Under the pieces are notes generated by a model that saw nothing but the letters and a program-made list of their open reading frames with translations, did not search any database and was not told the DNA's origin. Positions 1 through 63,428 of a stretch of DNA of 64,000 bases are shown here, piece by piece. Positions within the stretch are counted from its first letter, which is position 1. Each line of letters starts with the position of its first letter. This DNA is from a virus, in IMG/VR virus record IMGVR_UViG_3300037516_000306, positions 32,001 to 96,000 of that record. One strand, given 5' to 3'. The position numbers and the translations under genes were made by a program.

Positions 1-413
1 GTACTTGTTGTAGTTGGATAAACTGTAATCACTCCTGTTCCATCTAATTCACAATCTGTTGTTACACCAAATCCATCTAAATCACAATACAATAATGTAG
101 TGGTATGCGTAGTGGTTGGTTGTGGTGCTCCTGTAGTAGTTGTTGTAGTGCTTGGTGGTAAAGGTTTTGTCATAATTCCAACAAGAGCTTGAAATCCTCC
201 TCCAGCAGAAGAATCATCACAACATCCATTAAGTCCTGAATAAAAGAAATTATTTTCTCCTATATAAAAATTAGGAATATAAGTATGAAAAGAAATCCAA
301 CTTCCAGTATTTAAATTATATGACATGGTCCAAGATTTATTACAAAAATAATCTGGATCTGATAAGTAAACTTTCGTTCTTATTACTACTGGTATTTTAT
401 TTTCGTCAGCCAT
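1..413 (-). CDS. C-terminal part of split tail stabilization (muzzle-like) protein, Thr-rich; runs off window
   Basis: Not in ORF track. ATG at 413-411 gives MADENKIPVVIRTKVYLSDPDYFCNKSWTMSYNLNTGSWISFHTYIPNFY..., open to position 1. The SWTxSY..W.SFH.Y.P motif is typical of crAss-like stabilization proteins. Confidence 0.75.
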   Translation of the reverse strand, partial: MADENKIPVVIRTKVYLSDPDYFCNKSWTMSYNLNTGSWISFHTYIPNFYIGENNFFYSGLNGCCDDSSAGGGFQALVGIMTKPLPPSTTTTTTGAPQPTTTHTTTLLYCDLDGFGVTTDCELDGTGVITVYPTTTS

Positions 414-426
414 TGTTAATCTTTTA

Positions 427-3400
427 TTATGGTGTTGTAGTAGTCGTGGTACTTGTAGTGATAGGTTGATTAGTATAAACTATTGACTCAACATAAAACT
501 CTTTAGTTATAGGATCATATTTTACATCTTTATCAATAGGAATATAATCTTGTTTTGTAATTATCACTCTATCAAACTTACTATCATATACACCATGAAG
601 TCCTATTCCAGTATAGTTATTATCTATATCAACATTAGGAAAGAATCTAAGTATTTCAAATGCTAAGTGATCTGTCATAAATCTATTTACACCAGAACCA
701 ACTGCTGTAAGATCTTTAGCTCCTTCATTAGTTATTAAAAACACTTGTCCTCTTTTAGCATCTACAGTTACTTGTCCTTGTGGTATCTTCAATAAGAACT
801 TATTCTGACTTCCTACATATCCAAGATCTGTTTCAGCAAAATCAATAGGTGGAGTTTCTCCAAATAATTTAGTTCCTCCTAAATAAGCAGCTTTTGGATT
901 TGTAGAATCCATTGTTAATAATTTGTTATACAACAATGATTTGTTTTCAAATCTAGCAAGTACAGCTTTATCCTGAATACCATCTAATGATGTAAGCTTT
1001 CCATAGTTTTGAGGAAAATCAAATAATGCTAATGGGGCATAACTTAACCAATTGTTAACTCTTATATCAGCATTTTGTTCTTGTGAATCAGAATAGATTG
1101 CTCTAAATGGATAATATGTATAACATAATTGACTAGTCCAATCTGCTGGTAGATGTGAAAAGAAGTTTTCTTTATTCTGTTTAGAGAATGTTACATTATA
1201 ATAATATGTATTATCATAAGCAATTGTTGTAAACTCTTCTTGTACCCAATCATCAGGAATACCTGTAGATACATGTGGCCAGAAGTTTCCTTCTCTATCA
1301 TTGAATGCTTGTCTTAAATTTAAATTATAAGAAGTCTCACAATAAAAATTAGGAATACCATATGCAAATAAATAAAACTTACCATCATAAAATGTTCTAT
1401 ATGTACCAGCTGGTCCTCCAACAGTTGTAGGAGCTTTACTAGGATCACTAGGACAATCAAAGTTGTGAGCTTTAATTGATATAATGTTAGTCATTGTTTG
1501 GTAGTTATACAAAATAGATCTAGCAGAATGCCAGAATTTTGGATAAGCTACGTTACCTATTTCATCATAGAATATATCACTATCATCTAATCCATTCACT
1601 CTATTATCTATAAAGAATGGAAGTTTTGTTTTGTATGCAAATCTAGAAATAAATGTATCTCCACCAAACACTACATCATTTGAAAAACCACTATCAAAAA
1701 ATCTTTGGAATCCTGTGTCAATTGTTTCATATGAATATATTTGTCCCCATTGGTTTACAAATATATTTTTCAATGAAGCATAATATACTACAGTTGTAAT
1801 GTCTTGTTCTTTCTCAGGTGTGTTACAATAGTTTCTACCTGTAAGAGGATCTATATTACTAGAGATTGTGAATCTAGATTTATCTGTAATTAAAGATGTA
1901 CCTAATGAATTAACAAGTGTTGGTGTTTTATCAGGGAATGGTAATGGCACTACTGAATTAGTTAATGCACCTTTTGTTCTTAAATAAATAGAAGACTCTC
2001 TTTGGTAGTTATTAATGTTTTTATCATCTCCAATATTTTGAACTCCTGGAATCATATAAGATTTTAAATCAAGAGGTCTTTGTTTAATACCAACATTTCC
2101 ATTAATATCTGCAGTGTTATTATTTATATCTGAATAGTAATCATAGTTAGCTACAGAGTTAAATGAATACGCATAATTCTTTCTTGTAATACCATTTACA
2201 TAAATAGTTAGATATGCTTGGTATGCTGTAAATACAGCTGTTATATCTAGACCACCAATAGTAAATGATGCTTTTAATGCATCTTCTTGAACCTCTTTAG
2301 AAAGAAGTCTATATTTAGCATTACCTTTCACTTTGACAAAATGTGCTCTACCTCCACCAAACATTACATTTTCTAACTTAAGAACATCTCCTAAGAATGG
2401 TTGTGCAAAAGAAGTTTCAGGAGAATTAAACACTTGTCTATATCTAGAACTATCACTAGTTATAGGAGGAAGTGGTTTAGGATCTCCACAGAATGCATTA
2501 AGTGGTGATCTTCTTCCATACTCTCTTCCTGGAACTACATTTCCAAAAGGAGTTAATGTATTTGGAGGAAACTGTCCTAATGGGGGTGTTACAAAAGGTT
2601 GCTTAGTTGCACAAGGAGCAGGTTGTAAATCTTGTTCTTTAAAAGGAACTGAGTTTAAATCTAATCTTTGAACATATACAGGACCAATAGCACCTGCACA
2701 AGGATAAGGCATCCATCCCCCCCAATTTAAAGTTTTAAGAGGTTGATTATCATTAGTCCAACGAGTATTACTTCTTAATTTATAACAACTAACACCTGCG
2801 CATGCATTATTAACATACCACACATCATAGTTACCAGGACCTATTGTTGCTTTACCACTTAAATATATTGGTCTTGTTAAAGAACAAAATTCATAAGTTT
2901 CATTAGCAACCATTTGTTTAATTACTTGTTCACCAGTTTCTGGCTCAAAATAACTATAATCACCTGACTCAGTACATACAACCATCCATGGTTCTGTTTG
3001 TCCTAATACAGCATATGAATTACTACTTGCTAATAAGAATGGATCTGTATTAAGATCGTTATATGGATAGTTTGGATAGTATAAAGTTTGATCTTGTCTT
3101 TGGTATGTTCCTACATTACGGAGCATTCCTTTAGCTACAATAGATTTATTTGTATTTCTATTACCTCTTACAATTTTAAATCCTACAACATCATCTTTTT
3201 GATCTTGTGTAAGACCTGTTGATGTTTGTATAAGTGTTTCTATTTGTTTAATATTAACTTTTACACCTAATGGATATACAGCATTATTTTGCATCACTGG
3301 TTGAAACCCAGGAGTTAATGAATATACAGGATTCTCAAATATAGGACTTACAAGAACATCTGGAAACTTATGATGTCTAATAGGTTTACCAGCAAGATCA

Positions 3401-4872
3401 CCCCATACATCAACATTACAAGGATACTCTTCTGTAGACTCCCAATAAGCAAACTCACCATATTGATATGGTGTAGCATTATTAATATTAGGACCAGTAG
3501 CATTACCTATGACAGTAGCTGTATTATATATTTTCCAATAAGAACTATATCCTATTCCTGTAACAGGATCGATATAATCAGGCTCACCTATAAAATCAGC
3601 ATTAGTATTTGGTACATCTGGATATTGTAAATCAGCATAAGTTAATGTTCTTCCAGGAATATGGAACCCATCTGTTTGTTTTCCATTCTTTAATAAGAAT
3701 ACAATCTCAAATGCATACACCTCATCACGTAGATATCCACGTAGGTTTGTAGCATTTAATTCATCACCATAATTTTCATTGGAAGGAATTCTGTATGTCT
3801 CCCATAATAAATCTATTTGAGATGCTATTTGTTGATAATTAATTCTATCTATAGATGTAAGATTATCCCATACAAGAACATCTTGTACAGCTGTAAGATC
3901 TTGTGCTATATCATAGTATGGATACTTCTCAAATATATCTGATGGAGAAAGATTAATAAGTGTATTATTCTGTCCAGTATATGTTATTGTGTCAACTTGA
4001 TTCTCAATTGAATATGTACCAACTAATTCTATAGTGGTAATATTATTAACTGTTTTAATTACAGCTACATTATAATATTGAAATAACCCTGTTGTATCTA
4101 AATTAGTAATACTAACTTCTATAGATCTACCCACTTTATAATCAAATATAGCTGTGGTTAATTGCGTATCAGCAATTGGTGTAGGATTTGTAACAGAGTA
4201 ATATGATGTGTAAGGATTACCAGATGCATTAGCATATTGAATAGCAAACTGATATGTACCAGCAGTAAGATCTCCACCACTAGCTATATCTGATATAGTA
4301 AGTTGTGGAATATTAAAATTAGGTTGTATTTTTAATTGATTACAATCTAATTGATTTGTATATGTAGGGTCACAAGGATCTGAAGTAGGAGTTTGTAAAT
4401 ATGGAATATTTTCAATATCTAAATATCTTCTTGGATTTAATCCATCTGTCCAATATATTTCTGTAGTGCAATTACTTATTTTATGTACAACTTTATGTAT
4501 AGGATTGTTCTCATTAAAATTAAGACATGCAGCTTCTACTAATGTACGGTAGATACAATCATTGTTATCCATATATCCTATTTGACTCATCCCTAGTTGA
4601 GGATTTACAACAAAGAATATATGTTTGCTTTTTTCTGCAATAAAGTGTCTACCAATTAACATGTATCCAGAAGGAAAACTTATACAAAGTTCATTCCCTT
4701 GTTCATTTTGATAATTAATAGAACTTGCATCAAAGTTTTCTAAGGCAGCATTTAATGCATATGTAAGAGTACCTGGTTTAATCTGGTTCAAAGTTTGATC
4801 CATATTTAAACCAATAGATCCACTATTAATTTCTATCCTTATATTACTTTGTTCTTTTTCTTGATCAGCCAT
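427..4872 (-). CDS. Tail stabilization protein (crAss-like muzzle, P22 gp10-like), N-terminal part
   Basis: 1481 aa directly downstream of the tail tubular gene; YWTDGLNPRRY and GYLRDEVYAF motifs; ends in poly-Thr. Confidence 0.8.
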   Translation of the reverse strand: MADQEKEQSNIRIEINSGSIGLNMDQTLNQIKPGTLTYALNAALENFDASSINYQNEQGNELCISFPSGYMLIGRHFIAEKSKHIFFVVNPQLGMSQIGYMDNNDCIYRTLVEAACLNFNENNPIHKVVHKISNCTTEIYWTDGLNPRRYLDIENIPYLQTPTSDPCDPTYTNQLDCNQLKIQPNFNIPQLTISDIASGGDLTAGTYQFAIQYANASGNPYTSYYSVTNPTPIADTQLTTAIFDYKVGRSIEVSITNLDTTGLFQYYNVAVIKTVNNITTIELVGTYSIENQVDTITYTGQNNTLINLSPSDIFEKYPYYDIAQDLTAVQDVLVWDNLTSIDRINYQQIASQIDLLWETYRIPSNENYGDELNATNLRGYLRDEVYAFEIVFLLKNGKQTDGFHIPGRTLTYADLQYPDVPNTNADFIGEPDYIDPVTGIGYSSYWKIYNTATVIGNATGPNINNATPYQYGEFAYWESTEEYPCNVDVWGDLAGKPIRHHKFPDVLVSPIFENPVYSLTPGFQPVMQNNAVYPLGVKVNIKQIETLIQTSTGLTQDQKDDVVGFKIVRGNRNTNKSIVAKGMLRNVGTYQRQDQTLYYPNYPYNDLNTDPFLLASSNSYAVLGQTEPWMVVCTESGDYSYFEPETGEQVIKQMVANETYEFCSLTRPIYLSGKATIGPGNYDVWYVNNACAGVSCYKLRSNTRWTNDNQPLKTLNWGGWMPYPCAGAIGPVYVQRLDLNSVPFKEQDLQPAPCATKQPFVTPPLGQFPPNTLTPFGNVVPGREYGRRSPLNAFCGDPKPLPPITSDSSRYRQVFNSPETSFAQPFLGDVLKLENVMFGGGRAHFVKVKGNAKYRLLSKEVQEDALKASFTIGGLDITAVFTAYQAYLTIYVNGITRKNYAYSFNSVANYDYYSDINNNTADINGNVGIKQRPLDLKSYMIPGVQNIGDDKNINNYQRESSIYLRTKGALTNSVVPLPFPDKTPTLVNSLGTSLITDKSRFTISSNIDPLTGRNYCNTPEKEQDITTVVYYASLKNIFVNQWGQIYSYETIDTGFQRFFDSGFSNDVVFGGDTFISRFAYKTKLPFFIDNRVNGLDDSDIFYDEIGNVAYPKFWHSARSILYNYQTMTNIISIKAHNFDCPSDPSKAPTTVGGPAGTYRTFYDGKFYLFAYGIPNFYCETSYNLNLRQAFNDREGNFWPHVSTGIPDDWVQEEFTTIAYDNTYYYNVTFSKQNKENFFSHLPADWTSQLCYTYYPFRAIYSDSQEQNADIRVNNWLSYAPLALFDFPQNYGKLTSLDGIQDKAVLARFENKSLLYNKLLTMDSTNPKAAYLGGTKLFGETPPIDFAETDLGYVGSQNKFLLKIPQGQVTVDAKRGQVFLITNEGAKDLTAVGSGVNRFMTDHLAFEILRFFPNVDIDNNYTGIGLHGVYDSKFDRVIITKQDYIPIDKDVKYDPITKEFYVESIVYTNQPITTSTTTTTTP

Positions 4873-8463: not shown

Positions 8464-8715
8464 TTAAGTTAAGGTAGTTGTAGTGGTTGTTGTCACTTGA
8501 TCTAGTACTATATCTATATAGTTAGTACAATCTCCTGTTGATAACACTCTAACTACTGTTGTGTAATCAGGAACTAAAGAAGAAGAATATCCTGTAAGTA
8601 AAGCTGTTTTATCTACTCCTGATTCAAATGCTGTTACATATCCATCTAGATTTGAATACAGGTTGAAGGGGCCTGAATCAGCCCCAGCAACTGTTAATGT
8701 TATTAATACTGTCAT
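8464..8715 (-). CDS. Small putative virion protein with poly-Thr tail
   Basis: Paralogue of the N-terminal domain of 8733..10043 (MTVLITLT..GPFNLYS..DGY..CTNYIDI). Confidence 0.75.
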   Translation of the reverse strand: MTVLITLTVAGADSGPFNLYSNLDGYVTAFESGVDKTALLTGYSSSLVPDYTTVVRVLSTGDCTNYIDIVLDQVTTTTTTTLT

Positions 8716-8732
8716 ATATTATTGATTTTAAA

Positions 8733-10043
8733 TTAAAACGGACAAGGTCCTATTATATTAAATAGTACACCTCCTGTTGAGTAAACATTAGTTGCACAGC
8801 CAGTACCTGTTTCACCTGGTCCATAAGGAACAGTAGAGACAACACCTGTGTCACAATCAGTCACAACTAAATCTCCTCCAACATCTCCTGAATCATAAGA
8901 ATATTCAAAACAATATCCTGTACAACCTGCTCCTTCTGTTGTGTCTGCTGGAAAGTTATCACTAATTAAAGGAGATTGAGCACATATTGTTATTGAAGGA
9001 TCTAGTTCTCCTAAATTAATAGTAAGTGGAGTTGATCCACCACATGGTGTGTATTGTACTGTATGTATCTCACCAGCAACTGGATCTATTAGATATTGTG
9101 CACATGTAGGAATACCTGTAGTTGTACTTGTAGTTGTAGATGTAGATGGTGTTGGTATACAGCATGGACCGAAAGCTTCTACAGTAAAGGATACAGTTGC
9201 TGATAATGAATTTCTATTCAAACATGCAGGATCATCAAGACCAATAAATACGTTTGGACCTGAAACTATAGCTACTGATTTAGGAGTACCAAAACAATCT
9301 TCATAGTTAAATGTACCAGCTCCATCTGCAATAATACTTACATACTCAACACATGGACACACAGTAGTAGTGGTTGTAGTTGTTGGCGGTATAGTAGTAG
9401 TAGTAGTTGTTGTTTGACAAGCTCCTAAAATACAAGGATCTCCAACTGTAATTATTACACTAGGATCATTCGCAGATGGTAGAGATCCACAAAGTTTTAC
9501 AGTTTCATTACCACCAATACCTATATTGAATAGTTCAACATTATCACAAGTAGTATATCCAAACAAATGAGGATTTTCATCTGTATTTACAAATGTTAAA
9601 CAATTACAAGCAATAACTGTTGTTGTTGAAGTTGTTGTACTAGAACTACTTGTAGTAGTTGATGTAGTACTACTTGAGGTACTAGTTGTTGTACTTGTAG
9701 GAGGAACAGTAGTTGTACTAGTTGATGTAGAACTACTTGTACTGGTTGTAGTGCTCGTAGGAGGAACTGTAGTAGTAGATGTAGTTGTACTACTAGAACT
9801 GGTAGTAGTAGTTGTAGTAATTAAATTGATTGGTATATCAATATAATTTGTACATGGTGCAATAGATCTCACTCTAATGATTGTTGTTCCAGGAGGTACA
9901 TTAAATGATATAAATCCAGCTGTTAAAACAAGTGCAGATATATTTGTTTCAAATGGTAGGACATACCCATCTGTATCTGAATAAAGATTAAAAGGACCTG
10001 CAATCCCACCAGGTGGTATGGTTAATGTTATTAAGACTGTCAT
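8733..10043 (-). CDS. Modular Thr/Ser-rich, Cys-rich putative fibre/decoration protein
   Basis: Small Cys domains separated by long T/S tracts; TTTVPPTSTTTSTSSST occurs twice. Confidence 0.7.
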   Translation of the reverse strand: MTVLITLTIPPGGIAGPFNLYSDTDGYVLPFETNISALVLTAGFISFNVPPGTTIIRVRSIAPCTNYIDIPINLITTTTTTSSSSTTTSTTTVPPTSTTTSTSSSTSTSTTTVPPTSTTTSTSSSTTSTTTSSSSTTTSTTTVIACNCLTFVNTDENPHLFGYTTCDNVELFNIGIGGNETVKLCGSLPSANDPSVIITVGDPCILGACQTTTTTTTIPPTTTTTTTVCPCVEYVSIIADGAGTFNYEDCFGTPKSVAIVSGPNVFIGLDDPACLNRNSLSATVSFTVEAFGPCCIPTPSTSTTTSTTTGIPTCAQYLIDPVAGEIHTVQYTPCGGSTPLTINLGELDPSITICAQSPLISDNFPADTTEGAGCTGYCFEYSYDSGDVGGDLVVTDCDTGVVSTVPYGPGETGTGCATNVYSTGGVLFNIIGPCPF

Positions 10044-10412: not shown

Positions 10413-12026
10413 TTAATCTTGTATTAATCTTACTGAGAAACCAAGTGTTGGAGTACTACCAAAATTTCTATAAACAATTCCATCAGCAGGAGTCATTAGG
10501 CGATAATAATAATCTGTAGAAGGAAGAAGTGATGAAGGCCACCAATTACCACTAAAACCAAGATTACTAAATGCACCAAAACTATCTCGTAGACCTCCTC
10601 CAAGTGCTGAAAAGCCAGTACTATTAGTAGCATCTATATTATTAACATTCCAGTGACATAATCCTGTTTGTTTTAATGCACTACCAGCAACGCTTGAACC
10701 TCCTAAAAATGTAGTTAGCGTTGTCCATTCTGCATCACTTGGAACATGATAACCTGTTGGAGCTAATCCCCTTGGATCATTTACAGCGTACCAGTTGTAT
10801 ATTTTTCCATAAATTGGTCCATTTGCTGAATCATTATTGTAGTAACACCATGCAGGAGTAGTTAATGCTGCCCAAGCAGTTGGATCACTTACTTCTGGAA
10901 TAGGATCACCATTTGCAAAAGTAGTAATATTTAGATTACATCCAGTCCACACTTGAGTTCCAATTGTTACATTACCTGGTATACAATTTACACATACAGT
11001 TGTTGTTGTAGTAGTTGTTGGTGCTACAGTGGTAGTAGATGTAGTAGTAGAACTAGAACTACTAGTTGTTGTTGTAGTTGTTGGATCTGGAAGTTGATTA
11101 GCAGTTCCAGTGAAGTTACAATTTGGTATAGCAGTTGTTGTTGTAGTAGTTGTAATTCCAGGACATAATCCACCAATACAATCAGCTCCAACTGTAATTA
11201 ATACAAGATCACTGTCTGCAGATGCACAACATCCACAAAATTGTGATGTTTGATTTGCAGCAATTGTAAAATCAATAGGCTCTCCAAGACAATTATTATA
11301 TAAAATATTATGGCTTGCACTACTATCTGTATTTTCAAATGTCAAACATTCACAAGGAATTGGTGTTGTTGTTGTAGTGGTAGTAGGTGCTATTGTCGTA
11401 GTACTAGTTGATGTTGATGATGTTGTACTTGTAGTTGGAGGAAAGCAAGGACCATTTGGAATCACTATAATAGTTCCAGGAACAGTTAGAGGACTATCTG
11501 TTACAACACAAATATTTGTATCTCCTGGATATAGTATAATAGCGTCTGGCTCTTGTGTTGTACAATCAGTAATAATTATAGCTACTGGTACATCTCCTGT
11601 ATTAGTTAATGAGAAGTTTTCACAAAGACGTATTGTTGTTGTACTTGTTGTAGTAGGTACAGCAGTAGTAGAAGTTGTTGTTGTACAACATTCACCTAAT
11701 ATATTATATATGTTAGTAATATTATTGTTGATATTAGTAATCTCATTCTTAATATTAATAATTTCAATATTTAATATATTAATCTGTGTTAATAGATTAC
11801 ATATAATCTCATCAATCTTTTGTAATATCACATTAAGTGTATCACATGGTTCAGCTGTCGTACAACTTAATGCAGGACCATCATAAACAATAGTGCTAGA
11901 AGCAGTTAAATGAGTACCACATGGATTGTTACAACCACCATTGGTGATTGTAGAACTACATCCACAAGGACTATTTAAAACTACATCTGTACAGCAAGGA
12001 TTTACTGGTAAATATGGATATGCCAT
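10413..12026 (-). CDS. Fibre-like protein with C-terminal FISUMP (Fib_succ_major) domain; putative receptor-binding protein
   Basis: IGTQVW..NL, YGKIYNWYAV, APTGYHVPSDAEW and GFSVRL motifs; Thr linkers. Confidence 0.8.
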   Translation of the reverse strand: MAYPYLPVNPCCTDVVLNSPCGCSSTITNGGCNNPCGTHLTASSTIVYDGPALSCTTAEPCDTLNVILQKIDEIICNLLTQINILNIEIINIKNEITNINNNITNIYNILGECCTTTTSTTAVPTTTSTTTIRLCENFSLTNTGDVPVAIIITDCTTQEPDAIILYPGDTNICVVTDSPLTVPGTIIVIPNGPCFPPTTSTTSSTSTSTTTIAPTTTTTTTPIPCECLTFENTDSSASHNILYNNCLGEPIDFTIAANQTSQFCGCCASADSDLVLITVGADCIGGLCPGITTTTTTTAIPNCNFTGTANQLPDPTTTTTTSSSSSTTTSTTTVAPTTTTTTTVCVNCIPGNVTIGTQVWTGCNLNITTFANGDPIPEVSDPTAWAALTTPAWCYYNNDSANGPIYGKIYNWYAVNDPRGLAPTGYHVPSDAEWTTLTTFLGGSSVAGSALKQTGLCHWNVNNIDATNSTGFSALGGGLRDSFGAFSNLGFSGNWWPSSLLPSTDYYYRLMTPADGIVYRNFGSTPTLGFSVRLIQD

Positions 12027-13188: not shown

Positions 13189-14352
13189 TTATAAAGCATC
13201 AAAGTGCGTATAGATTGTTCTAATTCCACTTGGAGCTAATGTTGTTGTTGTGCTTGTAGTTGAACTAGTAGAACTTGTTGTTGTACTTGTTGAACTACTG
13301 CTAGTAGTGGTAGTAGATGAAGTAGGTTCAATACCACATATATACATATCAAATCCAGTTCCATTTAAACTTCCAGGATTATTTCCTGTTATTGTAATTG
13401 TATTGAAAGGTGCATCTGCAACCACTTCAATATTTCCTCCTGTACGCTGTTCTGGTGAAGGCATAGAACCTGCAACAACATTTGGAGCTTCAACTCTAAA
13501 GTCATTACATCCAGCTAATTCTGTTACTACTGTATTTGCAGCATTTGTTGTAAATGTATAATATTCTGATATACCTAATTGGTCAGCATAACCCATTCCA
13601 TACATTACAAATTTTACTGCAGTTTGAGCAGTACTATATGTTATTGTAAATGTAAAAGCTCCATCACTATAATTTAAAAAAATTGATCCACCTGTTCCAA
13701 CATCTCCACCAAATTGTCCACCTACACAATTAATAAAAGGAGGACTTGGTAAACTAAGTAGTGGTAACGCTCCTGTATATGTAGTGCTAACTACTAATCC
13801 AGAACTAAGTGTCATAGTTCCATCACCTGTATATCTATTTGGAAAACCTACAGGACCATAATAACCAACAGGACATCCTGCTGTAGAATTACTTGTGGTA
13901 GATGTAGTAGTTGTACTTGTTGAACTTGAACTTGTTGTTGTTGTAGTTGGTATTGCAGTTGTACTAGTACTGGTTGTAGATGTACTAGTTGAACTTGTAG
14001 TAGTTGTAGTTCTTACAGGATTTGGTACAATAATAATATCACAAGGTTCCTCTAAACAACGTTCTGGTTCATTACATCTACTAACACATCCTAATGTAAG
14101 ACGTATCACTCTACTAGCTATCATCTTAACAGAGTACTTACATACGTAGTTAGGATTACAATACTTATAAGTTAATATTCTCCTGTAACCTATTAACTGA
14201 AGAATGTCATCAGCAGGTACTGGTTTATTTAACATATACGATATGTTATTATATAAATTATTGCCAAGCTCAGCTAACTTACAATCTATCTTTTTAAGTA
14301 AAGAAGGTATATCAGCGCATTCTGGGCAATTATTTAGTCTTGGTGATAACAT
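13189..14352 (-). CDS. Putative virion protein: Cys-rich N-domain plus Thr-tract-flanked beta domain
   Basis: 387 aa in structural block; two long T/S tracts. Confidence 0.65.
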   Translation of the reverse strand: MLSPRLNNCPECADIPSLLKKIDCKLAELGNNLYNNISYMLNKPVPADDILQLIGYRRILTYKYCNPNYVCKYSVKMIASRVIRLTLGCVSRCNEPERCLEEPCDIIIVPNPVRTTTTTSSTSTSTTSTSTTAIPTTTTTSSSSTSTTTTSTTSNSTAGCPVGYYGPVGFPNRYTGDGTMTLSSGLVVSTTYTGALPLLSLPSPPFINCVGGQFGGDVGTGGSIFLNYSDGAFTFTITYSTAQTAVKFVMYGMGYADQLGISEYYTFTTNAANTVVTELAGCNDFRVEAPNVVAGSMPSPEQRTGGNIEVVADAPFNTITITGNNPGSLNGTGFDMYICGIEPTSSTTTTSSSSTSTTTSSTSSTTSTTTTLAPSGIRTIYTHFDAL

Positions 14353-15112: not shown

Positions 15113-16243
15113 TTAAGGAGCAGTTGTAGTAGTAGTTGTAGTTGTGATACAAGTATTATTATCTGGAACAGTTCCTAAAGCAGCTTCTAAGATTGCTTCA
15201 AATGGAGCAGTTAAGTTACTACCACCTTGAGGCACAGCAATAATCACTGTAGAATCTTCCATGATGTAATCACCCCATTGGTATTCAGATTTGTTATACT
15301 CGTTGAATTTGATATAGAATGAGTTGTACATAGTACCATTAGATACCCAAGACTCAAAGTTCTCATTGTATCCATTCATTCTATATAAGTGTTTCAAGTA
15401 ACCTGCTTGGTAGCTGTAGAAGTTTTTCTCTAATTGAGCAATCTCTGCAGATGTTCCAGTAGGATAAGAAGCACGTTGTGCAATTGTTTCAGTAGCAACA
15501 ATGTTACAAGCATCCGCTACGATAAAGTCAGCAGTAGTAGCTGGACCAGCATAAACGAAAGTTCTGAAAGACAATCTATCATATTCAAATGGGAACGCTG
15601 CGATATCACAAGGTTGTCCATATACAGTTAATGGTTTTCCAGTAATACGTAAGATAGTTCCACCTACATTTTCAAATGTATAGAATGTGTTGAAGCTAAT
15701 GTTATCAGGGTTATTACCTGGAGCTTGTTGAGTTAATTTAGCAATCAATAAGTCAATAATAATATTTGGACTTACATCAGCACATGGATTTTCGTCACAA
15801 CCACAACAAGGAGCTTGGATAGTTACTGAACGAGTGAAACCATTGAAATACAAAGTATTGATGTAGCTAGAAAAACCACGTAAAGTTAACGTGATGCTTT
15901 CTCCACATTGTACTAAGAAATCAGTTACATCAGTAATTTGATTAGCAGCAGTTGGACATCCTGTTACTTTGTACCATTCTGTTACGTTAGAGTTGCAACC
16001 AGATCCTGAAGGACATCCTTTGATCTTATCAGATCTTTTAGAACCTTGCAAGTAAGTGTTTGTTCTACCTTGAGCTACATAGAAGTAAGGAGAAGCAGCA
16101 ATATTCAAAGCAGTAGCTACAGAATAATCGCTTTTAAAAATTCCCACAGTACCTGGAGTTAGGTCTTGTGTTGAGCCAGAGCTAGGGACAGCACTCTGCC
16201 CTACTGGAACCACGAATAACGTGGTTAATGAAAAATCAGCCAT
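15113..16243 (-). CDS. Conserved crAss-like virion protein (gene-74-like position) with poly-Thr tail
   Basis: Third gene after MCP; KRSDKI motif; ends CITTTTTTTAP. Confidence 0.6.
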   Translation of the reverse strand: MADFSLTTLFVVPVGQSAVPSSGSTQDLTPGTVGIFKSDYSVATALNIAASPYFYVAQGRTNTYLQGSKRSDKIKGCPSGSGCNSNVTEWYKVTGCPTAANQITDVTDFLVQCGESITLTLRGFSSYINTLYFNGFTRSVTIQAPCCGCDENPCADVSPNIIIDLLIAKLTQQAPGNNPDNISFNTFYTFENVGGTILRITGKPLTVYGQPCDIAAFPFEYDRLSFRTFVYAGPATTADFIVADACNIVATETIAQRASYPTGTSAEIAQLEKNFYSYQAGYLKHLYRMNGYNENFESWVSNGTMYNSFYIKFNEYNKSEYQWGDYIMEDSTVIIAVPQGGSNLTAPFEAILEAALGTVPDNNTCITTTTTTTTAP

Positions 16244-56966: not shown

Positions 56967-57600
56967 CAGGGAACGTAAGAGTGACATTAAATATGCTGTC
57001 ACACTTAATGAAGAACAGAAGCTCGCTAAACAGTTAATAATAGATAACCAAATAGTTATTGTTACTGGTAGAGCAGGAAGTGGTAAGTCCTTAGTATGTG
57101 CTCAAGCAGCTTTAGATTTCTTAATGAAGAAGCAATGTAACCACATCTATGTTACAAGAGCTACAATCGAAGTGGGAAGTTCATTAGGGTTCTTACCTGG
57201 TGATTTAGAAGATAAGTTTAATCCATATCTTGAGGCCTTTCAAGAAAACTTAGAGAAATGTTATGATAAAGTTAAGATTCAGGAGCTGGTTAAGGCAAAA
57301 AAAGTGGTCGCTTATCCTGTGCAGTTTATACGTGGTAAGACTATTGATGATGTGTTGGTGGTGGAAGAAGCACAGAACCTGTCAAAAGGGGAAATGCTCG
57401 CTATACTAACAAGACTTGGTAAAACTGGAAAGATTATTATCAACGGTGATAATGAACAGAAAGACATTAAGGAATCATACACTGGTCTATCATATGCTAT
57501 AGATATTTCAAAAAAAATAGAAGGTATAGAATGGATCAAACTTAAAGCTAATCACAGAAGTGATCTTGTAGGTAAAATATTAGATAACGAATACAATTAA
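56953..57600 (+). CDS. phoH: PhoH-like ATPase
   Basis: GRAGSGKS, LGFLPGDL, FIRGKT, EEAQN and LTRLG motifs. Confidence 0.92.
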   Translation: MKEPNRERKSDIKYAVTLNEEQKLAKQLIIDNQIVIVTGRAGSGKSLVCAQAALDFLMKKQCNHIYVTRATIEVGSSLGFLPGDLEDKFNPYLEAFQENLEKCYDKVKIQELVKAKKVVAYPVQFIRGKTIDDVLVVEEAQNLSKGEMLAILTRLGKTGKIIINGDNEQKDIKESYTGLSYAIDISKKIEGIEWIKLKANHRSDLVGKILDNEYN

Positions 57601-57882: not shown

Positions 57883-58158
57883 ATGAAAAACCAATTTTTT
57901 TACACAGCTACTATTAACAATAAGGAGTATATAGCTTCCTTAAATGTTAACAAGGTGATTAGAACCTTAGAGAATGATGCAGCAGGGCTTATTATCATTC
58001 TAGATGATTTCAATGAAAGAGTTACACAACAACCAGACATTGATATCAAGACTAACAAGATGAAGGGATTCAAGAGTGTTAGAGAAACAGTTCAGTCAGA
58101 GATTGAATTGAATGCAGAAGATGCAGAAAGATTTATTAAACTATTTGAAATTTTATAA
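57883..58158 (+). CDS. Hypothetical protein
   Basis: ORF track. Confidence 0.65.
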   Translation: MKNQFFYTATINNKEYIASLNVNKVIRTLENDAAGLIIILDDFNERVTQQPDIDIKTNKMKGFKSVRETVQSEIELNAEDAERFIKLFEIL

Positions 58159-58162
58159 AACC

Positions 58163-58444
58163 ATGGCTAAATTATTAGGAAACCGCATCTATTTAGAGAT
58201 GCCAAAGAAAGAAGAGAGTAAGCTTATCGTAGATGAGAATACAAAAGAATCTCTAGAAAAAGAAATGTTAAAGAAAATGAACAAGCTTAAAGTTCACAGT
58301 GTTGGTACAGCTAACATGGATGTTAAAGTGGGTGATGTTGTTCTTGTAGATCCAGCAGCTTTATCAAAAGCTCCATTAATCCCTTTATCAGATGATGAGC
58401 AAGTGTTACTTGTATCTCCATTTGATATTATTCAAATCTGGTAA
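58163..58444 (+). CDS. groES: GroES-like co-chaperonin
   Basis: Start 58163; KLLGNRI, VHSVG, VKVGDVVLV and DI motifs. Confidence 0.7.
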   Translation: MAKLLGNRIYLEMPKKEESKLIVDENTKESLEKEMLKKMNKLKVHSVGTANMDVKVGDVVLVDPAALSKAPLIPLSDDEQVLLVSPFDIIQIW

Positions 58445-58445
58445 T

Positions 58446-59210
58446 ATGGAACAGAAAAAAGTAGGTATAGTAATTCTTGCAACTAACGCATACTTTGTGT
58501 TAGGTGTAAACTTTATGAGAAAGTTCTCGCATCATTATAAGGGTGATGCAAAGATCACTTTTTATTTCTTCTCAGACACAGACCCTAAAGAGTATATAAC
58601 AGATGACATGGATGTGCAATATATACATCAGACACATGATACCTGGATGAATGCTACTAATTCTAAATTTATTAATATGCTGTCATTAGAAAACTGTGAT
58701 AGTGACTATTTAATATATGTAGATGCAGATACTAGTGTATCTAAAGATTTTACTGAAGAATGGTTCATTGGTGATACTGTAGGACTAGAACATTTTGGAA
58801 ACAATGGATGGATGAAAGACGTGAAGGGTTATGATAGAAATCCAAGATCTAAAGCTTATGTTCCTTATGACACTCAATTATTCCAGATGTATTATCATGG
58901 ATGTTTGTTTGGAGGTAAGAAAGATAAGATGATGGAAGTGTGCAAAGTGCTACGTGATAATCAAATTGAAGACAAAAAGATTCCATACGAACCAGGAGTG
59001 AATGATGAGAGTTACATCAACCAGTATTATCACTACAATCCACCTACACTAACTGTATATTTAGACAAGTATATGTTTAATGTTAGTGATAAATGTGGAA
59101 TTGAGCATAACAGAGATGTTAATTTCAGTGTAGAGGATTTGAAAAAAGAGATGTTAGCTAATAGAAACAACTTATATGACTTACAAAATGGTAAGTTAAT
59201 AGTGAGATGA
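58446..59210 (+). CDS. GT6-family (ABO/alpha-1,3-Gal transferase-like) glycosyltransferase
   Basis: VGIVILATNAY, FYFFSD, YVDAD (DxD), YYHGCLFGG and NDESYIN motifs; start 58446. Confidence 0.88.
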   Translation: MEQKKVGIVILATNAYFVLGVNFMRKFSHHYKGDAKITFYFFSDTDPKEYITDDMDVQYIHQTHDTWMNATNSKFINMLSLENCDSDYLIYVDADTSVSKDFTEEWFIGDTVGLEHFGNNGWMKDVKGYDRNPRSKAYVPYDTQLFQMYYHGCLFGGKKDKMMEVCKVLRDNQIEDKKIPYEPGVNDESYINQYYHYNPPTLTVYLDKYMFNVSDKCGIEHNRDVNFSVEDLKKEMLANRNNLYDLQNGKLIVR

Positions 59211-60520
59211 TATCAAGTTATAGAACTATAGATAATGGTACTAGTATAGAGTATAAAAACTTATATTCTATACAGGGTACCATTTATTTTTTAGCACTAG
59301 ATGATGTAGATTTACCATACGTAAAGAAGTTTACTATATCATATCATTGGAAACCAACTGTCATGAAGTTTAATTCTGAAGAAGAGCTTAATGCTTATGT
59401 TCAGAACTTACATAATGTGACAAGTATAGATCTATCAGTGCTATCTGACAACTTATGGTATGGAAATGTAGGACATGGATTATTTGATTGTCTTTATCCT
59501 ATCTACTTATCACTATTGAAGTTTGGATATGTAGATGAACCATTCACTTATCTTTCTACAGATTGGTCTTGGAGAGAGAACATGATGTATGATACAATCA
59601 AAGCATTTACTAAACAAGACTTATTAGAATACCCAAAGCTAGATAAAGACTATCATTTTAAAACGTTAATTGCAGGAACAGAACCTGCAGGTAATAGAGT
59701 ACAGAATAAAGAAGTCTTTATATATGGTAAGGAGTGGGATGGTTTACAGCAGTTCAAAAGAAGAATTTTTGAAGTGCACAACATTGCTATTGATAAACCT
59801 ATCAATGAGATTCCCAAAGTTATAGTTATTAACAACAAACGTTTTGATCATAATAATCTAGAAGTAATAAATACAGTGGTTAAACGTATGTCTAGTGTAT
59901 GTGATATAAAGTTTGTCGATTGGTATCATGACTACAGACGTTCTGGAAATCCAAAATTTGTAGATCAGATGAGAGATTTCCAAGATGTAGATATACAAGT
60001 AACTTCACCTGGAACAGCAATAATGTATTTACCACTAATGAAGAAAGGAGCAGTGAGTGTTAACCTTGGATTCATAGAGCATACACAAACCAATGGTGTT
60101 AGAGGAAATCTTAAGATATTAGAATCTAAACATGCAGATCATTTAATTCCTGCATATATGGAACAACCTATATGTGCTGGAACTTATTATGTTACATCGT
60201 TATATTACGATAGATATAAACATAATAATTTAGAAGTTGAGCCCCTAATAGATATAATCAATGAGGCAATTCAAACACTTAAGTCTGGACAAATTACTGA
60301 AGGTAATGTAGCAAAAGATGGTGAAGTGTTTAGAGAGTATTGTAAAAGAGCACAAGATGGTGATGCGTTATGTAAATTCTTAACAGAAGCATCTTTACAT
60401 GTTGAATTCTTTGTTAATGAACATCCTTATGCAATGCTACCTAGTACAGACATAGAATTACTTAGATTAATAAAAAATGAATTAAATTATGACAGAAATT
60501 ACGAAATCCACTTGGACTAA
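59207..60520 (+). CDS. GT61-like glycosyltransferase
   Basis: GNVGHGLFDCLYP (N-x-x-H motif) and DIQVTSPGTA...MKKGAV (HGAG-equivalent) motifs. Confidence 0.7.
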   Translation: MISSYRTIDNGTSIEYKNLYSIQGTIYFLALDDVDLPYVKKFTISYHWKPTVMKFNSEEELNAYVQNLHNVTSIDLSVLSDNLWYGNVGHGLFDCLYPIYLSLLKFGYVDEPFTYLSTDWSWRENMMYDTIKAFTKQDLLEYPKLDKDYHFKTLIAGTEPAGNRVQNKEVFIYGKEWDGLQQFKRRIFEVHNIAIDKPINEIPKVIVINNKRFDHNNLEVINTVVKRMSSVCDIKFVDWYHDYRRSGNPKFVDQMRDFQDVDIQVTSPGTAIMYLPLMKKGAVSVNLGFIEHTQTNGVRGNLKILESKHADHLIPAYMEQPICAGTYYVTSLYYDRYKHNNLEVEPLIDIINEAIQTLKSGQITEGNVAKDGEVFREYCKRAQDGDALCKFLTEASLHVEFFVNEHPYAMLPSTDIELLRLIKNELNYDRNYEIHLD

Positions 60521-61145
60521 TACTGTAGGAGGTATTGAATTAACATTCGAAGACATAGCTACATCAAACACTGTACCTTTTGTTTTTGGAGAACTAATAT
60601 CAGATTATTATGGATTAGAAAAAATCCAGTTATCTGAGAACGATATTGTTTTAGATATAGGTGCTAACGTAGGAATGTTTTCTATATACGCAAAGAAAAA
60701 GTTTGGATGTAGAGTTATTGCATTTGAACCAGTGCTATCTAACTTTGAGCAGTTTCAGAAGAACATCATCTTAAATGGTTTATCTCTATCAGATATTGAG
60801 CTACACAATACAGCTATAACAGATGTAGAAGGTGGTGAGATTAAAATAGGTACTCCAAAAGATAATACAGGAGGATCTTCTGCATTCTACCATACACATG
60901 ATATGCCTATATGCAAGACAGAAACAATTAACAAGTACATAACAGAAGGTTGTGTGTACTTAAAGATAGATTGTGAAGGAGGGGAATATGCTATCATCCC
61001 TACAATATTAGATAAGCTTAATCAGTTTAAATATATAGGAATTGAATATCATAAATTCTCTGCAGAACAAGATCCAATAGCTTTACATAAGTCAATAGAA
61101 TCTGCATTCAATGGAGAGATATTCTACAAAGAATATGGTACATAA
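60489..61145 (+). CDS. FkbM-family SAM methyltransferase
   Basis: LDIGANVG, AFEP and LKIDCEGGE motifs. Confidence 0.9.
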   Translation: MTEITKSTWTNTVGGIELTFEDIATSNTVPFVFGELISDYYGLEKIQLSENDIVLDIGANVGMFSIYAKKKFGCRVIAFEPVLSNFEQFQKNIILNGLSLSDIELHNTAITDVEGGEIKIGTPKDNTGGSSAFYHTHDMPICKTETINKYITEGCVYLKIDCEGGEYAIIPTILDKLNQFKYIGIEYHKFSAEQDPIALHKSIESAFNGEIFYKEYGT

Positions 61146-61177
61146 AAAAAGCCCCAATCAAGGGGCTTTATTATTTT
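61144..61177. terminator. Bidirectional terminator between convergent operons
   Basis: A-run, GCCCC-AATCAA-GGGGC, then TTTATTATTTT. Confidence 0.75.
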
Positions 61178-61320
61178 GATATTCTTTTCTTTTTAAATAA
61201 AGGTCTTTTTGTACCTTCACTTCCAGCTTCCTTCATATAATTCCCATTGATTGGGTTAGGAGGAGCTACCTTAGGAGCCATTCTAGGCTTACCACTCTTC
61301 TTAGCTTTGCCAGAAGTCAT
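61171..61320 (-). CDS. 49-aa basic protein
   Basis: Not in ORF track; MTSGKAKKSGKPRMAPKVAPPNP...KKKRISK. Confidence 0.6.
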   Translation of the reverse strand: MTSGKAKKSGKPRMAPKVAPPNPINGNYMKEAGSEGTKRPLFKKKRISK

Positions 61321-61324
61321 TGAT

Positions 61325-62002
61325 TTACTTGCAGCCATACTTGCATTTTTTCATTGATCCACCAGATTTCATAGTTTGTTTTTTAGGTGCTAATTTATCA
61401 ATACGTTTTTTTAATTGCTCTTTTTTTGATTTAATTAATTTTTCTCCAGTCTGAGCTTTCATAGTACCACCAGACTTCATATTGAACTGAACATCACCAT
61501 TCATTCTAGGATTTTCTGCTCCTCTTGCATTTCTTCTATTACTAATTCTATTAGCTACTTTATTAGCTCGTTCTCTAGAAGTTTCATTAATTCTAGTAAC
61601 TCTTTCATATTGACGTTTATTAAGATTTCTTGGAACAACGTTATTTCCATCTTGAGCTTTTTTCATTTTACCACCAGATTTAGCTGTTTTAGGAAGAACA
61701 CCTCTTCCAATTAATACATCTTTAAAAGTGGTTTTACCATCTTTGTTAAGATCAAACTTAGCACCAGATTTAGCTTTCTTCATAGTACCACCAGATTTCA
61801 TACCAGTTAACTCTTTAATTTTTTTCTTTGCAACTCCATATCCACCAAGAGTAGAAAGATTAAGAGCTGTTTCACCAGCATCTTTAACATCTCTTAATGT
61901 TAAGTCTCCAATTCTTTCAGAAGCACTCTTAGATTTTTTTGGTTTAGTTGTAACAGTAGTTTTCTTTTCTACTACCTTAACAGGTTTTTTAGGTTGTAAC
62001 AT
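61325..62002 (-). CDS. Lys-rich protein with KSGG repeats (putative core/cargo protein)
   Basis: Four (M/A)KSGG repeats; DLNKDG motif. Confidence 0.7.
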   Translation of the reverse strand: MLQPKKPVKVVEKKTTVTTKPKKSKSASERIGDLTLRDVKDAGETALNLSTLGGYGVAKKKIKELTGMKSGGTMKKAKSGAKFDLNKDGKTTFKDVLIGRGVLPKTAKSGGKMKKAQDGNNVVPRNLNKRQYERVTRINETSRERANKVANRISNRRNARGAENPRMNGDVQFNMKSGGTMKAQTGEKLIKSKKEQLKKRIDKLAPKKQTMKSGGSMKKCKYGCK

Positions 62003-62021
62003 GATTATATATTTTTAAGGG

Positions 62022-62300
62022 TTAACAGTTCCACTTACGTAGACTTTTATTGATTCTTGAGTTAGGATCTTTTGCTGTCTTAGCACTAGTAAGCTTCTTC
62101 TTCATACCAGACATTCTACTGCAGAAAGACTTACGTCTACCAGCAGCTTTACTTCCAGGTTTAAGCTTAGAAGGTTTAGTGGTTACAGCTGTTTTAAGTT
62201 TGCTACCAGGGTTAGCTTTTCTATATGAAGCCACACCTTTAGCATTTAGTCCTCCAGAAGGATTCTTTCCTTCTTTTCTTTGCCATGCTGCACTTGCCAT
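62022..62300 (-). CDS. DUF6321-like basic protein
   Basis: GGLNAKG...RRKSFCSRM...SLRKWNC. Confidence 0.7.
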   Translation of the reverse strand: MASAAWQRKEGKNPSGGLNAKGVASYRKANPGSKLKTAVTTKPSKLKPGSKAAGRRKSFCSRMSGMKKKLTSAKTAKDPNSRINKSLRKWNC

Positions 62301-62824
62301 TATTTCTTAGATTTAGCTTTAATTTTCTTCTCTTGTACTAACATTTGTTTAGTAGGTTTTTTTCCACTACCTTTATTAGCTCTTATGTTATCCCATAATC
62401 CACGTTTAGAATATGAACCATCAGCACGCTTTAACATACCGCCATTCTTTTTTGCTGTTCTTAAAGAATCAGCTGGACGAGTTAGAGCTTTATCATTTGC
62501 TAATTCTTGAGCAAAATTCATATTAGGAGAAAGAGCTTCATATGTTGCATTTCTACCACCTACATTTTTAGTAACTTGAGCTTTATAATTTTTTCCTTCT
62601 TTAAAGAATTTTACTCCTATAGGATTAGTAGTCTTTGTTGTTGTTGTTGAAGCAGCTCCAGATTTAGCTTTCTTTATCTTACCACCAGATTTTAATGTGC
62701 TTCCTTTAAATGGACCTTTCTTCTTAATAAGAGGACCATTAGGAACAGGTGTTATCTTACCACCCTGTTTTAATACACCAGGGCCTACATAAGCTACAGC
62801 TTTTTGAGGATTTAACTTAGACAT
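62300..62824 (-). CDS. Lys-rich KxGG-repeat protein
   Basis: KQGG, KSGG and KNGG; GLWDNIRA motif. Confidence 0.7.
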   Translation of the reverse strand: MSKLNPQKAVAYVGPGVLKQGGKITPVPNGPLIKKKGPFKGSTLKSGGKIKKAKSGAASTTTTKTTNPIGVKFFKEGKNYKAQVTKNVGGRNATYEALSPNMNFAQELANDKALTRPADSLRTAKKNGGMLKRADGSYSKRGLWDNIRANKGSGKKPTKQMLVQEKKIKAKSKK

Positions 62825-63426: not shown

Positions 63427-63428
63427 GA

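What the first reader, a model, noticed from the sequence alone, without database searches (positions are those of the whole stretch)
58446..61145. Candidate phage-encoded virion O-glycosylation system: GT6 + GT61 + FkbM acting on mucin-like Thr tracts
Seen: three overlapping genes (GT6, GT61-like, FkbM methyltransferase) with no signal peptide or TM segment close the rightward operon, just after GroES. At least seven virion-module ORFs carry T/S homopolymer tracts or tails. Established: GT61 includes enzymes acting on protein O-glycans (EOGT, POMGNT2); GT6 enzymes add alpha-1,3-Gal/GalNAc caps; FkbM-type enzymes are often found with glycan genes; some mycobacteriophages and chloroviruses glycosylate their own virions. 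Inference: an initiate-extend-methylate pathway coats this crAss-like virion in a glycan shield. Alternative targets are DNA or host surface polysaccharide.
Basis: partly seen in the sequence, partly recalled or inferred. Interest (0 to 1): 0.88.

Follow-up and report, generated by a model that had tools for sequence, protein, structure and literature searches.

The report
Swappable sugar-tailoring cassette of a lake phage
An abundant lake-water phage carries three co-transcribed sugar-building enzymes at a site where its near-identical relatives carry other sugar enzymes, and comparison with other phages suggests, without proof, that they decorate the poly-threonine tags on the virus particle.

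Summary
Three coupled genes (58446-61145) encode a DxD-type GT6, a GT61-fold enzyme (POMGNT2 Z 20) and an FkbM methyltransferase. None has a membrane segment, and they end at a bidirectional terminator. Seven leftward ORFs in the window's structural-gene block carry Thr/Ser tracts, mostly runs of exactly seven Thr.

The three enzymes form one pathway: GT6 lies next to the GT61-like gene in 19 of 20 loci, and fused GT6+GT61-like proteins exist. In 4 other phage lineages the trio sits directly behind a GT8-like GT-A gene and mucin-like Thr-rich proteins. Poly-Thr tracts occur near the cassette in 7 of 12 lineages and in 0 of 117 neutral viral loci.

However, 8 of 8 complete close relatives lack the trio and still have 7-20 poly-Thr matches. 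All eight carry the GT-A, and at the same site they carry other GT/methyltransferase sets. So the trio is most likely a swappable tailoring module, and the conserved GT-A is the better candidate for the first step.

Modification of a host surface glycan is not excluded. No DNA-modification starter gene was found. Nothing has been measured.

The scan had already noted the GT-A plus poly-Thr module in many Firmicutes phages. The trio was noted only in this genome.

The parts
58112..58444 (+). GroES-like gene. It is the conserved left border of the variable cassette site.
   Evidence: Cpn10 E 6e-3 and phrog_3188 E 3.6e-3, both weak. It is conserved at 32-91% identity in all 10 relatives examined, always just before the variable genes.
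58446..59210 (+). GT6 glycosyltransferase: 254 aa, minimal catalytic domain, DxD type.
   Evidence: PF03414 E 1.7e-14. Human ABO transferase E 2e-11, with VDAD aligned to the VDVD metal site and NDES to the catalytic WHDES. NF041524 E 2e-23, below its cut-off. Homologues start at this ATG.
59207..60520 (+). GT61-fold glycosyltransferase, 437 aa, of an almost phage-only family.
   Evidence: AF2 pLDDT 93; POMGNT2 Z 20.1. EOGT E 5e-4. 169 cluster representatives among 1.8 billion. One hit in the scan of 185,579 species genomes.
60489..61145 (+). FkbM-family SAM methyltransferase, 218 aa.
   Evidence: PF05050 E 3e-13, TIGR01444 E 5e-24, weak RfbT similarity E 2e-5. It lies beside the GT61-like gene in 12 of 20 loci.
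61148..61169 (.). Bidirectional hairpin terminator that closes the cassette and the convergent Lys-rich operon. It is the right border of the swap site.
   Evidence: 8-bp stem with 5 GC pairs and T runs on both strands. An RNA-library contig ends at 61170. Variant contigs diverge at 61145-61160.
427..4872 (-). Virion structural protein, 1481 aa, ending in TTSTTTTTTP.
   Evidence: phrog_37948 E 4e-97. Tail shown.
3..413 (-). 3' part of a 525-aa ORF with Thr runs and a C-terminal T7 tail.
8464..8715 (-). 83-aa protein ending in T7-LT. Candidate substrate.
8733..10043 (-). 436-aa protein with six Thr/Ser tracts.
   Evidence: No Pfam or PHROG match.
10413..12026 (-). 537-aa protein with seven Thr/Ser tracts between Cys-rich segments.
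13189..14352 (-). 387-aa protein with three long Thr/Ser tracts.
   Evidence: Weak Pfam Mucin match, E 4e-3.
15113..16243 (-). 376-aa protein ending in T8-AP, three genes from the major head protein gene.

Best explanation
The three genes form one co-transcribed, soluble glycan-tailoring module.

Proposed steps (inferred). A conserved GT8-like GT-A, encoded outside the window at genome 102516-103580 among poly-Thr proteins, puts the first sugar on the T7 tags of late proteins. The GT61-fold enzyme adds a second sugar. GT6 adds an alpha-1,3-linked hexose of the Gal type; His at the donor-specificity position suggests Gal rather than GalNAc. FkbM O-methylates a sugar as a cap.

The module occupies a recombination hot spot between the GroES-like gene and a terminator. 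Near-identical phages carry other GT/methyltransferase sets there, so each variant would display a different glycan.

Shown: the enzyme identities, their linkage to each other, their linkage to the GT-A and to Thr-rich genes, and the cassette swapping. Inferred: the substrate, the order of steps, the sugars, and that the tagged proteins sit on the virion.
For: One pathway.
- GT6 is adjacent to the GT61-like gene in 19 of 20 loci spanning 39-82% identity, and FkbM in 12.
- Fused proteins exist: GT6+GT61-like in both orders, GT61-like+Fringe-like, and more distant GT61-like relatives with an FkbM domain.
- The genes are translationally coupled.
- One RNA-library contig spans 58446-61170 and stops at the terminator. 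This is weak evidence.

Link to Thr-tagged proteins.
- In 4 lineages the order is Thr/Ser-tract protein, GT-A, GT6, GT61-like (plus FkbM in three; the L103 contig ends short) on one strand.
- The GT-A lies within the locus in 8 of 12 lineages and in 0 of 117 neutral loci (p 3e-10).
- (ACN)7 tracts occur in 7 of 12 lineages and in 0 of 117 neutral loci (p 8e-9).

The GT-A.
- It has an invariant YxDxDI motif and a glycogenin/UGGT/XXYLT1-like fold.
- It is present in 8 of 8 complete relatives.
- In 6 of 7 cultured phages sampled it lies right beside capsid, tail or small neighbouring genes with poly-Thr tails or tracts. In phiFL1A the tail protein ends GTTTTTSTTTTTTSSTTTTTTT....

Soluble type.
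- There is no membrane segment.
- GT6 is the minimal DxD clade, which lacks the membrane-binding domain of the bacterial GT6 enzymes (PMC3516806).

Phage-specific.
- The GT61-like family has one hit in the scan of 185,579 species genomes.
Against: - No glycan has been detected.
- In this genome the trio lies in the rightward replication-type operon, about 9 kb from the GT-A and not among structural genes.
- The tracts do not need the trio: 8 of 8 relatives lack it.
- Three cassette-bearing records show no GT-A: two incomplete contigs, and the MAG that holds a 141-kb contig.
- Most Thr-tract proteins here and in L104, L105 and L102 have no structural annotation.
- The major head protein has no Thr tail.
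- GT6, GT2, GT11 and FkbM/RfbT-like enzymes are also typical of O-antigen and capsule synthesis.
- The 12 lineages share a habitat and are not fully independent.
Confidence: 0.5

Rival explanations
1. Host-envelope modification. During infection the trio alters a host O-antigen, capsule or other surface glycan. This could block superinfection or stop progeny from sticking to debris. The cassette varies because host glycans vary.
For: - These GT families, and the GT2, GT11 and GT32 enzymes at the same site in relatives, are classic polysaccharide enzymes.
- FkbM resembles Vibrio RfbT, an O-antigen methylase, at E 2e-5.
- The cultured-phage GT6 matches are all in cyanophages, where they lie among other glycosyltransferases.
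- The trio lies in the early/middle-type operon and not in the structural block.
- Strain-level variation at one site is what host-matched genes would show.
Against: - The enzymes have no membrane segment, and GT6 is of the clade without the membrane-binding domain of LPS-acting GT6.
- The GT61-like family is almost absent from prokaryote genomes, so it is not a recent capture of a host gene.
- The tight linkage to the GT-A and to Thr-rich genes in other phages has no reason under this model.
Confidence: 0.2
2. The GT61-fold enzyme itself puts the first sugar on Thr, as EOGT does. GT6 extends it and FkbM methylates it, without the GT-A.
For: - The only solved GT61 members act on protein O-glycans: POMGNT2 (Z 20) and EOGT (E 5e-4).
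- L102's MAG (which holds a 141-kb contig), G019 and G020 have GT6 and the GT61-like gene plus poly-Thr tracts but no detectable GT-A.
Against: - Close relatives keep the tracts without any GT61-like gene.
- The GT-A is the component that follows Thr tails across phyla.
- G019 and G020 are only 43% and 55% complete.
- GT61 also contains enzymes that act on glycans only.
Confidence: 0.13
3. DNA hypermodification. The enzymes build a methylated di- or trisaccharide on a modified base of the phage DNA.
For: - Phages do glycosylate DNA with several sugars (PMC13326640; bioRxiv 10.1101/2023.12.21.572611).
- The cassette lies beside replication and nucleotide-metabolism genes.
- In L007 and L008 it lies near genes that, read by eye, look like ThyX and dCMP deaminase.
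Against: - The genome has no thymidylate-synthase homologue and no Tet/JBP match (the control for that search was uninformative).
- None of the ten mid-size rightward-operon proteins scanned is a base-modifying enzyme.
- Every characterised GT6 uses a beta-Gal or beta-GalNAc acceptor (PMC3516806).
- This model gives no reason for the linkage to Thr-rich proteins.
Confidence: 0.04

Closest known systems
Mycobacteriophage virion glycosylation (Che8, Rita and others; Freeman et al. 2023, known here only through PMC11256854 and PMC12619734)
   Same: Phage-encoded glycosyltransferases, several per genome. Glycans sit on C-terminal extensions of structural proteins, and the transferase genes lie away from the structural genes.
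   Different: Those glycans were measured; here nothing has been. The host phylum differs (a Bacteroidota-type lake host is inferred). The tags here are T7 runs on minor or unannotated late proteins, not on the major head protein. The enzyme families here are GT6, GT61 and FkbM. Homology to the Che8 enzymes was not tested.
GT8-like GT-A plus poly-Thr tail module of Firmicutes phages
   Same: The same GT-A family at 28-35% identity, with a DxD motif, beside Thr-tailed capsid or tail genes. This genome has it among poly-Thr proteins.
   Different: In the neighbourhoods I sampled, those phages show the GT-A alone. Here it is joined by a variable set of further GTs and methyltransferases, which implies longer and variable glycans.
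Minimal DxD clade of GT6 (cyanophage P-SSM2, Parachlamydia PaGT6; PMC3516806)
   Same: About 250 aa, DxD motif, catalytic Glu, no C-terminal membrane-binding domain. 24-30% identity to cyanophage GT6 genes.
   Different: His at the donor-specificity position, and Val in place of the acceptor-stacking Trp. The biological acceptor is unknown for both. The obligate pairing with a GT61-fold enzyme is not described for that clade.
GT61 enzymes POMGNT2 and EOGT
   Same: The fold matches over residues 1-361 (Z 20). The solved members act on O-linked protein glycans or directly on Ser/Thr.
   Different: 13-15% identity. A helical C-terminal domain replaces the FnIII domain. The protein is cytoplasmic and phage-encoded. 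Catalytic residues were not compared.
Variable O-antigen and capsule loci, and serotype-converting phage genes
   Same: GT/methyltransferase cassettes are swapped at a fixed site between conserved flanks, with terminal methyl caps (RfbT-like).
   Different: No flippase, polymerase or membrane GT was seen. The carrier is a lytic-type phage with a 95-100% conserved head protein. The cassette is linked to Thr-rich phage proteins.

Membership tests
CAZy GT6 | Sequence match to the family model above its threshold | tested here: met
   PF03414 53.8 bits against a cut-off of 25. 72 PDB GT6 sequences at E <= 0.01.
CAZy GT6 | Metal-binding DxD (or NxN) motif and the catalytic Glu (E303 of human GTA, E192 of BoGT6a) | tested here: met
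   VDAD aligns with VDVD, and NDES aligns with WHDES. The role of these residues is described in PMC3516806.
CAZy GT6 | Transfer of alpha-Gal or alpha-GalNAc to the 3-OH of a beta-Gal or beta-GalNAc | not testable with these tools
   This needs an enzyme assay. The acceptor-stacking Trp is replaced by Val.
CAZy GT61 | Sequence match to PF04577 above its threshold | tested here: not met
   15.5 bits against a cut-off of 27. Three homologues carry the precomputed hit, and a fused relative reaches 26.4 bits.
CAZy GT61 | GT61 fold, as in POMGNT2 | tested here: met
   Z 20.1, rmsd 4.1 A over 311 residues; the next fold scores Z 10. Foldseek E 1e-11. The family profile hits EOGT at E 5e-4.
CAZy GT61 | Conserved catalytic and UDP-binding residues | not tested
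   No residue-level structural alignment was made.
FkbM methyltransferase family | Match to the family models above their thresholds | tested here: met
   PF05050 50.6 bits against 22.7. TIGR01444 85.3 bits against 37.7.
Phage virion O-glycosylation (mycobacteriophage type) | Phage-encoded glycosyltransferases together with Ser/Thr-rich C-terminal extensions on structural proteins | tested here: met
   At least five GT domains in the genome. Six ORFs have C-terminal T6-T8 tails, one of them a PHROG virion protein. The major head protein has no tail.
Phage virion O-glycosylation (mycobacteriophage type) | Glycans detected on virion proteins | not testable with these tools
   This needs glycoproteomics or lectin blots.
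Serotype conversion / host LPS modification | Membrane-associated enzymes (GtrA/B/C type, or a membrane-binding domain) | tested here: not met
   None of the three proteins has a membrane segment. GT6 is of the clade that lacks the membrane-binding domain. Gtr-type genes were not specifically searched for.
Phage DNA glycosylation | An enzyme that makes the hydroxylated base (ThyA homologue or TET/JBP) | tested here: not met
   PF00303 has no match, and the control rang in 10 of 14 genomes. PF12851 has no match, but its control was silent, so that part is inconclusive.

The most novel reading that the evidence does not exclude
An abundant lake phage lineage has a 'glycotype' locus. Particles with almost identical head proteins carry poly-Thr tags, and each strain decorates them with a different methyl-capped glycan by swapping GT/methyltransferase cassettes at one hot spot. 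This would be a viral counterpart of bacterial O-antigen serotypes. The GT6 plus GT61-like pair would be a phage-specific glycan-extension unit.
Probability: 0.33. Interest if true: 0.85.

Novelty: new variant of a known kind. Interest (0 to 1): 0.7.

Why it matters
Glycosylated phage particles have been shown only for mycobacteriophages. If this reading holds, three things follow.
- Virion glycosylation extends to an abundant freshwater crAss-like lineage.
- The glycan is built by a conserved initiator plus interchangeable tailoring modules.
- Co-existing strains differ in their coat sugars.

That would bear on phage adsorption, aggregation, grazing and recognition in nature. It would also give a function to a nearly phage-only GT61 branch and to the minimal phage-type GT6 clade, whose acceptor has remained unknown.

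The proposal can be tested directly with small T7-tagged proteins co-expressed with the enzymes.

Tried and rejected
- Nucleotide and protein searches of cultured phages with the cassette: no DNA match, and no match for the GT61-like protein. No cultured carrier of the trio was found.
The contexts of distant homologues on long contigs (P0012, P0083) could not be read.
- PHROG annotation of Thr-rich neighbours in L104, L105, L102 and L004: no functional annotation; only two matches to families of unknown function for one L004 protein. Their virion role stays inferred.
- Sequence search of the GT-A against the PDB gave nothing. Only the fold search was informative.
I used a neutral 14-mer sample instead.
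- Chryseobacterium phage MA9V-3 has the GT-A and Thr-rich ORFs but no match to this head protein. It is not a close relative.
- The Freeman et al. 2023 paper is not held. It is cited only through secondary papers.
- Sigma-70-like promoter hits in the cassette were fewer than in shuffled sequence (17 against 22.6), so there is no sign of an internal promoter.
- The RNA-library contig does not prove transcription, because such libraries can contain DNA.
- I considered the alternative GT6 start at 58392 and rejected it, because homologues align from 58446.
Full report
**What is there**

The window is bases 32001-96000 of a 113,562-bp IMG/VR virus record that CheckV rates 98% complete. The leftward genes encode terminase, portal, major head protein and large virion proteins. 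The rightward genes encode DNA polymerase, helicases, primase, RIIA/B, a RecA-like protein, MazG and PhoH.

The terminase is 40% identical to that of Leptolyngbya phage Lbo-JY46, 31% to Cellulophaga phages phi4:1 and phi17:2, and 25-27% to crAss-like phages. "crAss-like" is therefore fair only in a broad sense.

The cassette DNA occurs at a word share of 0.9 or more in eight lake-water metagenome runs of eight studies.

**The three genes**

The ORFs 58446-59210, 59207-60520 and 60489-61145 close the rightward operon. They are translationally coupled. A bidirectional hairpin terminator at 61148-61169 follows, shared with a convergent operon of Lys-rich small proteins.

The first gene is a clear GT6 (PF03414 E 1.7e-14; human ABO transferases E 2e-11).
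- VDAD aligns with the metal-binding VDVD, and NDES with the catalytic WHDES.
- At 254 aa, with DxD and no C-terminal membrane-binding domain, it fits the minimal clade typified by cyanophage P-SSM2 (PMC3516806).
- The position that separates A from B transferase (266) is His here, as I recall it is in alpha-1,3-galactosyltransferase. This hints at a Gal-type donor.
- The acceptor-stacking Trp is replaced by Val.

The second gene is only a sub-threshold Pfam GT61 hit, E 0.021.
- A model built on 31 homologues (pLDDT 93) matches POMGNT2 at Z 20.1 over 311 residues. The next fold scores Z 10.
- The family profile finds EOGT at E 5e-4.

The third gene is an FkbM-family methyltransferase (PF05050 E 3e-13; TIGR01444 E 5e-24) with a weak likeness to Vibrio RfbT.

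None of the three has a membrane segment.

**One pathway**

The GT61-like family is small: 169 cluster representatives among 1.8 billion. It is nearly confined to viral and metagenomic DNA. A pattern scan of 185,579 species genomes gave one locus, on a 141-kb MAG contig.
- In 20 loci spanning 39-82% identity, GT6 is adjacent in 19 and FkbM in 12.
- Natural fusions join GT6 to the GT61-like domain in both orders. Another joins the GT61-like domain to a Fringe-like domain. More distant relatives are joined to FkbM domains.
- A 2,986-nt contig from a metatranscriptome library covers 58446-61170 and ends at the terminator. This is a weak hint of a single transcript.

**The Thr tracts**

- Genome-wide there are 15 pure-Thr runs of 7 or more. 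Twelve are exactly seven long.
- They are written in mixed ACA/ACT/ACC codons, so selection acts on the protein and the runs are not slippage products.
- All lie outside the rightward block (P 0.006).
- Six ORFs end in T6-T8 tails such as T7-AP or T7-LT.

I fetched relatives through the head protein. More than 595 contigs match, and the 80 best are 94-100% identical.
- Of eight relatives that are at least 90% complete, none has the GT61-like gene.
- All eight have 7-20 matches to (ACN)7, against 18 here.
- So the tracts do not depend on this trio.

At the same site, between the GroES-like gene and the end of the Lys-rich operon, every relative carries other enzymes:
- GT2 alone
- GT2 plus a class I methyltransferase
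- GT32-like plus GT2
- GT11 plus GT2
- GT2 plus a TOD1/MUCI70-like protein
- two GT2 genes

In runs X6 and X13, other contigs diverge from the window at 58431-58451 and at 61145-61160. In X6 the sequence past the left breakpoint opens a reading frame that starts MNYPF, like the MEYPFIS... start of the relatives' GT2. Cassette variants therefore probably co-exist in one lake sample, and the site is a swap hot spot.

**What does go with the tracts**

A 338/354-aa gene at genome 102516-103580 lies among small poly-Thr proteins, outside the window.
- It is present in 8 of 8 complete relatives at 54-88% identity.
- It has an invariant YxDxDI motif. Its model (pLDDT 87) matches glycogenin, the UGGT catalytic domain, xyloside xylosyltransferase and WbbM. 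It is therefore a GT8-like retaining GT-A.
- Homologues occur in 77 cultured phage records. In 6 of the 7 I opened, the gene lies right beside capsid, tail or small neighbouring genes with poly-Thr tails or tracts; in Enterococcus phage Planchet the Thr-rich tail-protein end lies 1.7 kb away.
- In Enterococcus phage phiFL1A it follows the major tail protein, which ends GTTTTTSTTTTTTSSTTTTTTTQASSK. The capsid protein there also ends in Thr runs.
- Earlier notes of this scan report the same pairing in many Firmicutes phages. My sample reproduces it independently.

**Link between the trio and that system**

- In four other lineages (the L004 group, L103, L104, L105) the GT-A, GT6 and the GT61-like gene lie contiguously on one strand. 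FkbM follows in three of them; the L103 contig ends too soon to tell.
- In L104 and L105 these genes directly follow proteins with 3 to 20 Thr/Ser tracts.
- The GT-A lies within the fetched locus in 8 of 12 cassette lineages.
- (ACN)7 tracts lie within it in 7 of 12.

As a control I took 117 viral loci (1.08 Mb, 35% GC) picked by an arbitrary 14-mer. They contain no such tract and no homologue of any of the four proteins. Fisher p is 3e-10 for the GT-A and 8e-9 for the tracts. Conversely, 6 of 118 loci picked only for an (ACN)7 tract hold the GT-A (p 0.015).

The lineages share habitats and are not fully independent, so these p-values overstate the case.

**Mechanism**

The most likely sequence is as follows.
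1. The conserved retaining GT-A starts O-glycosylation on the T7 tags in the cytoplasm.
2. The GT61-fold enzyme (the family is inverting, from memory) adds a beta-linked sugar.
3. GT6 adds an alpha-1,3 Gal-type cap.
4. FkbM methylates a sugar.

Relatives would replace steps 2-4 with GT2, GT11 or other methyltransferases. The steps and sugars are inferred. I give this reading 0.5.

**Rivals**

- *Host-surface modification (0.2).* It fits the enzyme families and the operon position. It does not explain the linkage to the GT-A and Thr-rich genes, the near absence of the GT61-like family from cellular genomes, or the lack of any membrane-binding feature.
- *DNA modification (0.04).* There is no ThyA homologue and no Tet/JBP match. 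This model also gives no reason for the protein linkage.

**Limits**

Nothing here is chemistry. Most Thr-rich proteins lack a structural annotation.

A 1146-aa enzyme with methyltransferase, GT4-like and GT9-like domains elsewhere in the genome occurs in only 2 of 8 relatives. It may be a second variable tailoring element.

Noticed in passing
window 61171-63755 (- strand): A convergent operon of six small Lys-rich proteins with repeated K-S-G-G-x-M-K-K-A-like motifs. They are conserved but vary in length in all 10 relatives. They have no Pfam or PHROG family.
   Followed up: partly
genome 106258-109698 (+), = L100:10258-13698: A 1146-aa enzyme with methyltransferase, GT4-like and GT9 (heptosyltransferase-like) domains. 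It is present in only 2 of 8 complete relatives. A 47%-identical homologue turned up in an unrelated control locus (L261).
   Followed up: partly
whole genome; tracts listed: The length of the pure-Thr runs is quantised. Twelve of 15 are exactly seven residues. They are often flanked by Pro or by Cys-rich segments.
   Followed up: partly
window 58431-58451 and 61145-61160, runs X6 and X13: Contigs from these lake runs diverge from the window at the cassette borders. In X6 the left-hand one continues into a reading frame that starts like the relatives' GT2. This suggests that cassette variants co-exist in one population.
   Followed up: partly
window 56953-57600 (PhoH): The PhoH-like gene is present in only 4 of 8 complete close relatives, so the end of the rightward operon is variable beyond the cassette as well.
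   Followed up: no
L093:8450-9076 (relative G008): An extra 208-aa ORF lies inside the swap site. Its N-terminus looks like a GIY-YIG homing endonuclease (read by eye only). Such an enzyme could drive cassette exchange.
   Followed up: no
L114 (Chryseobacterium phage MA9V-3, PV245944.1): A cultured 103-kb phage of a Flavobacteriales host carries a 35%-identical GT-A flanked by ORFs with long Thr/Ser tracts. It is a possible laboratory model for the core system, though its head protein is unrelated.
   Followed up: partly
L007 and L008 (records G019, G020): In this more distant lineage the GT6 plus GT61-like pair lacks FkbM. It lies near genes that look like ThyX, dCMP deaminase and ribonucleotide reductase (read by eye). 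G019 has 57 overlapping matches to the seven-Thr pattern, clustered within about 1.2 kb some 21 kb away.
   Followed up: no
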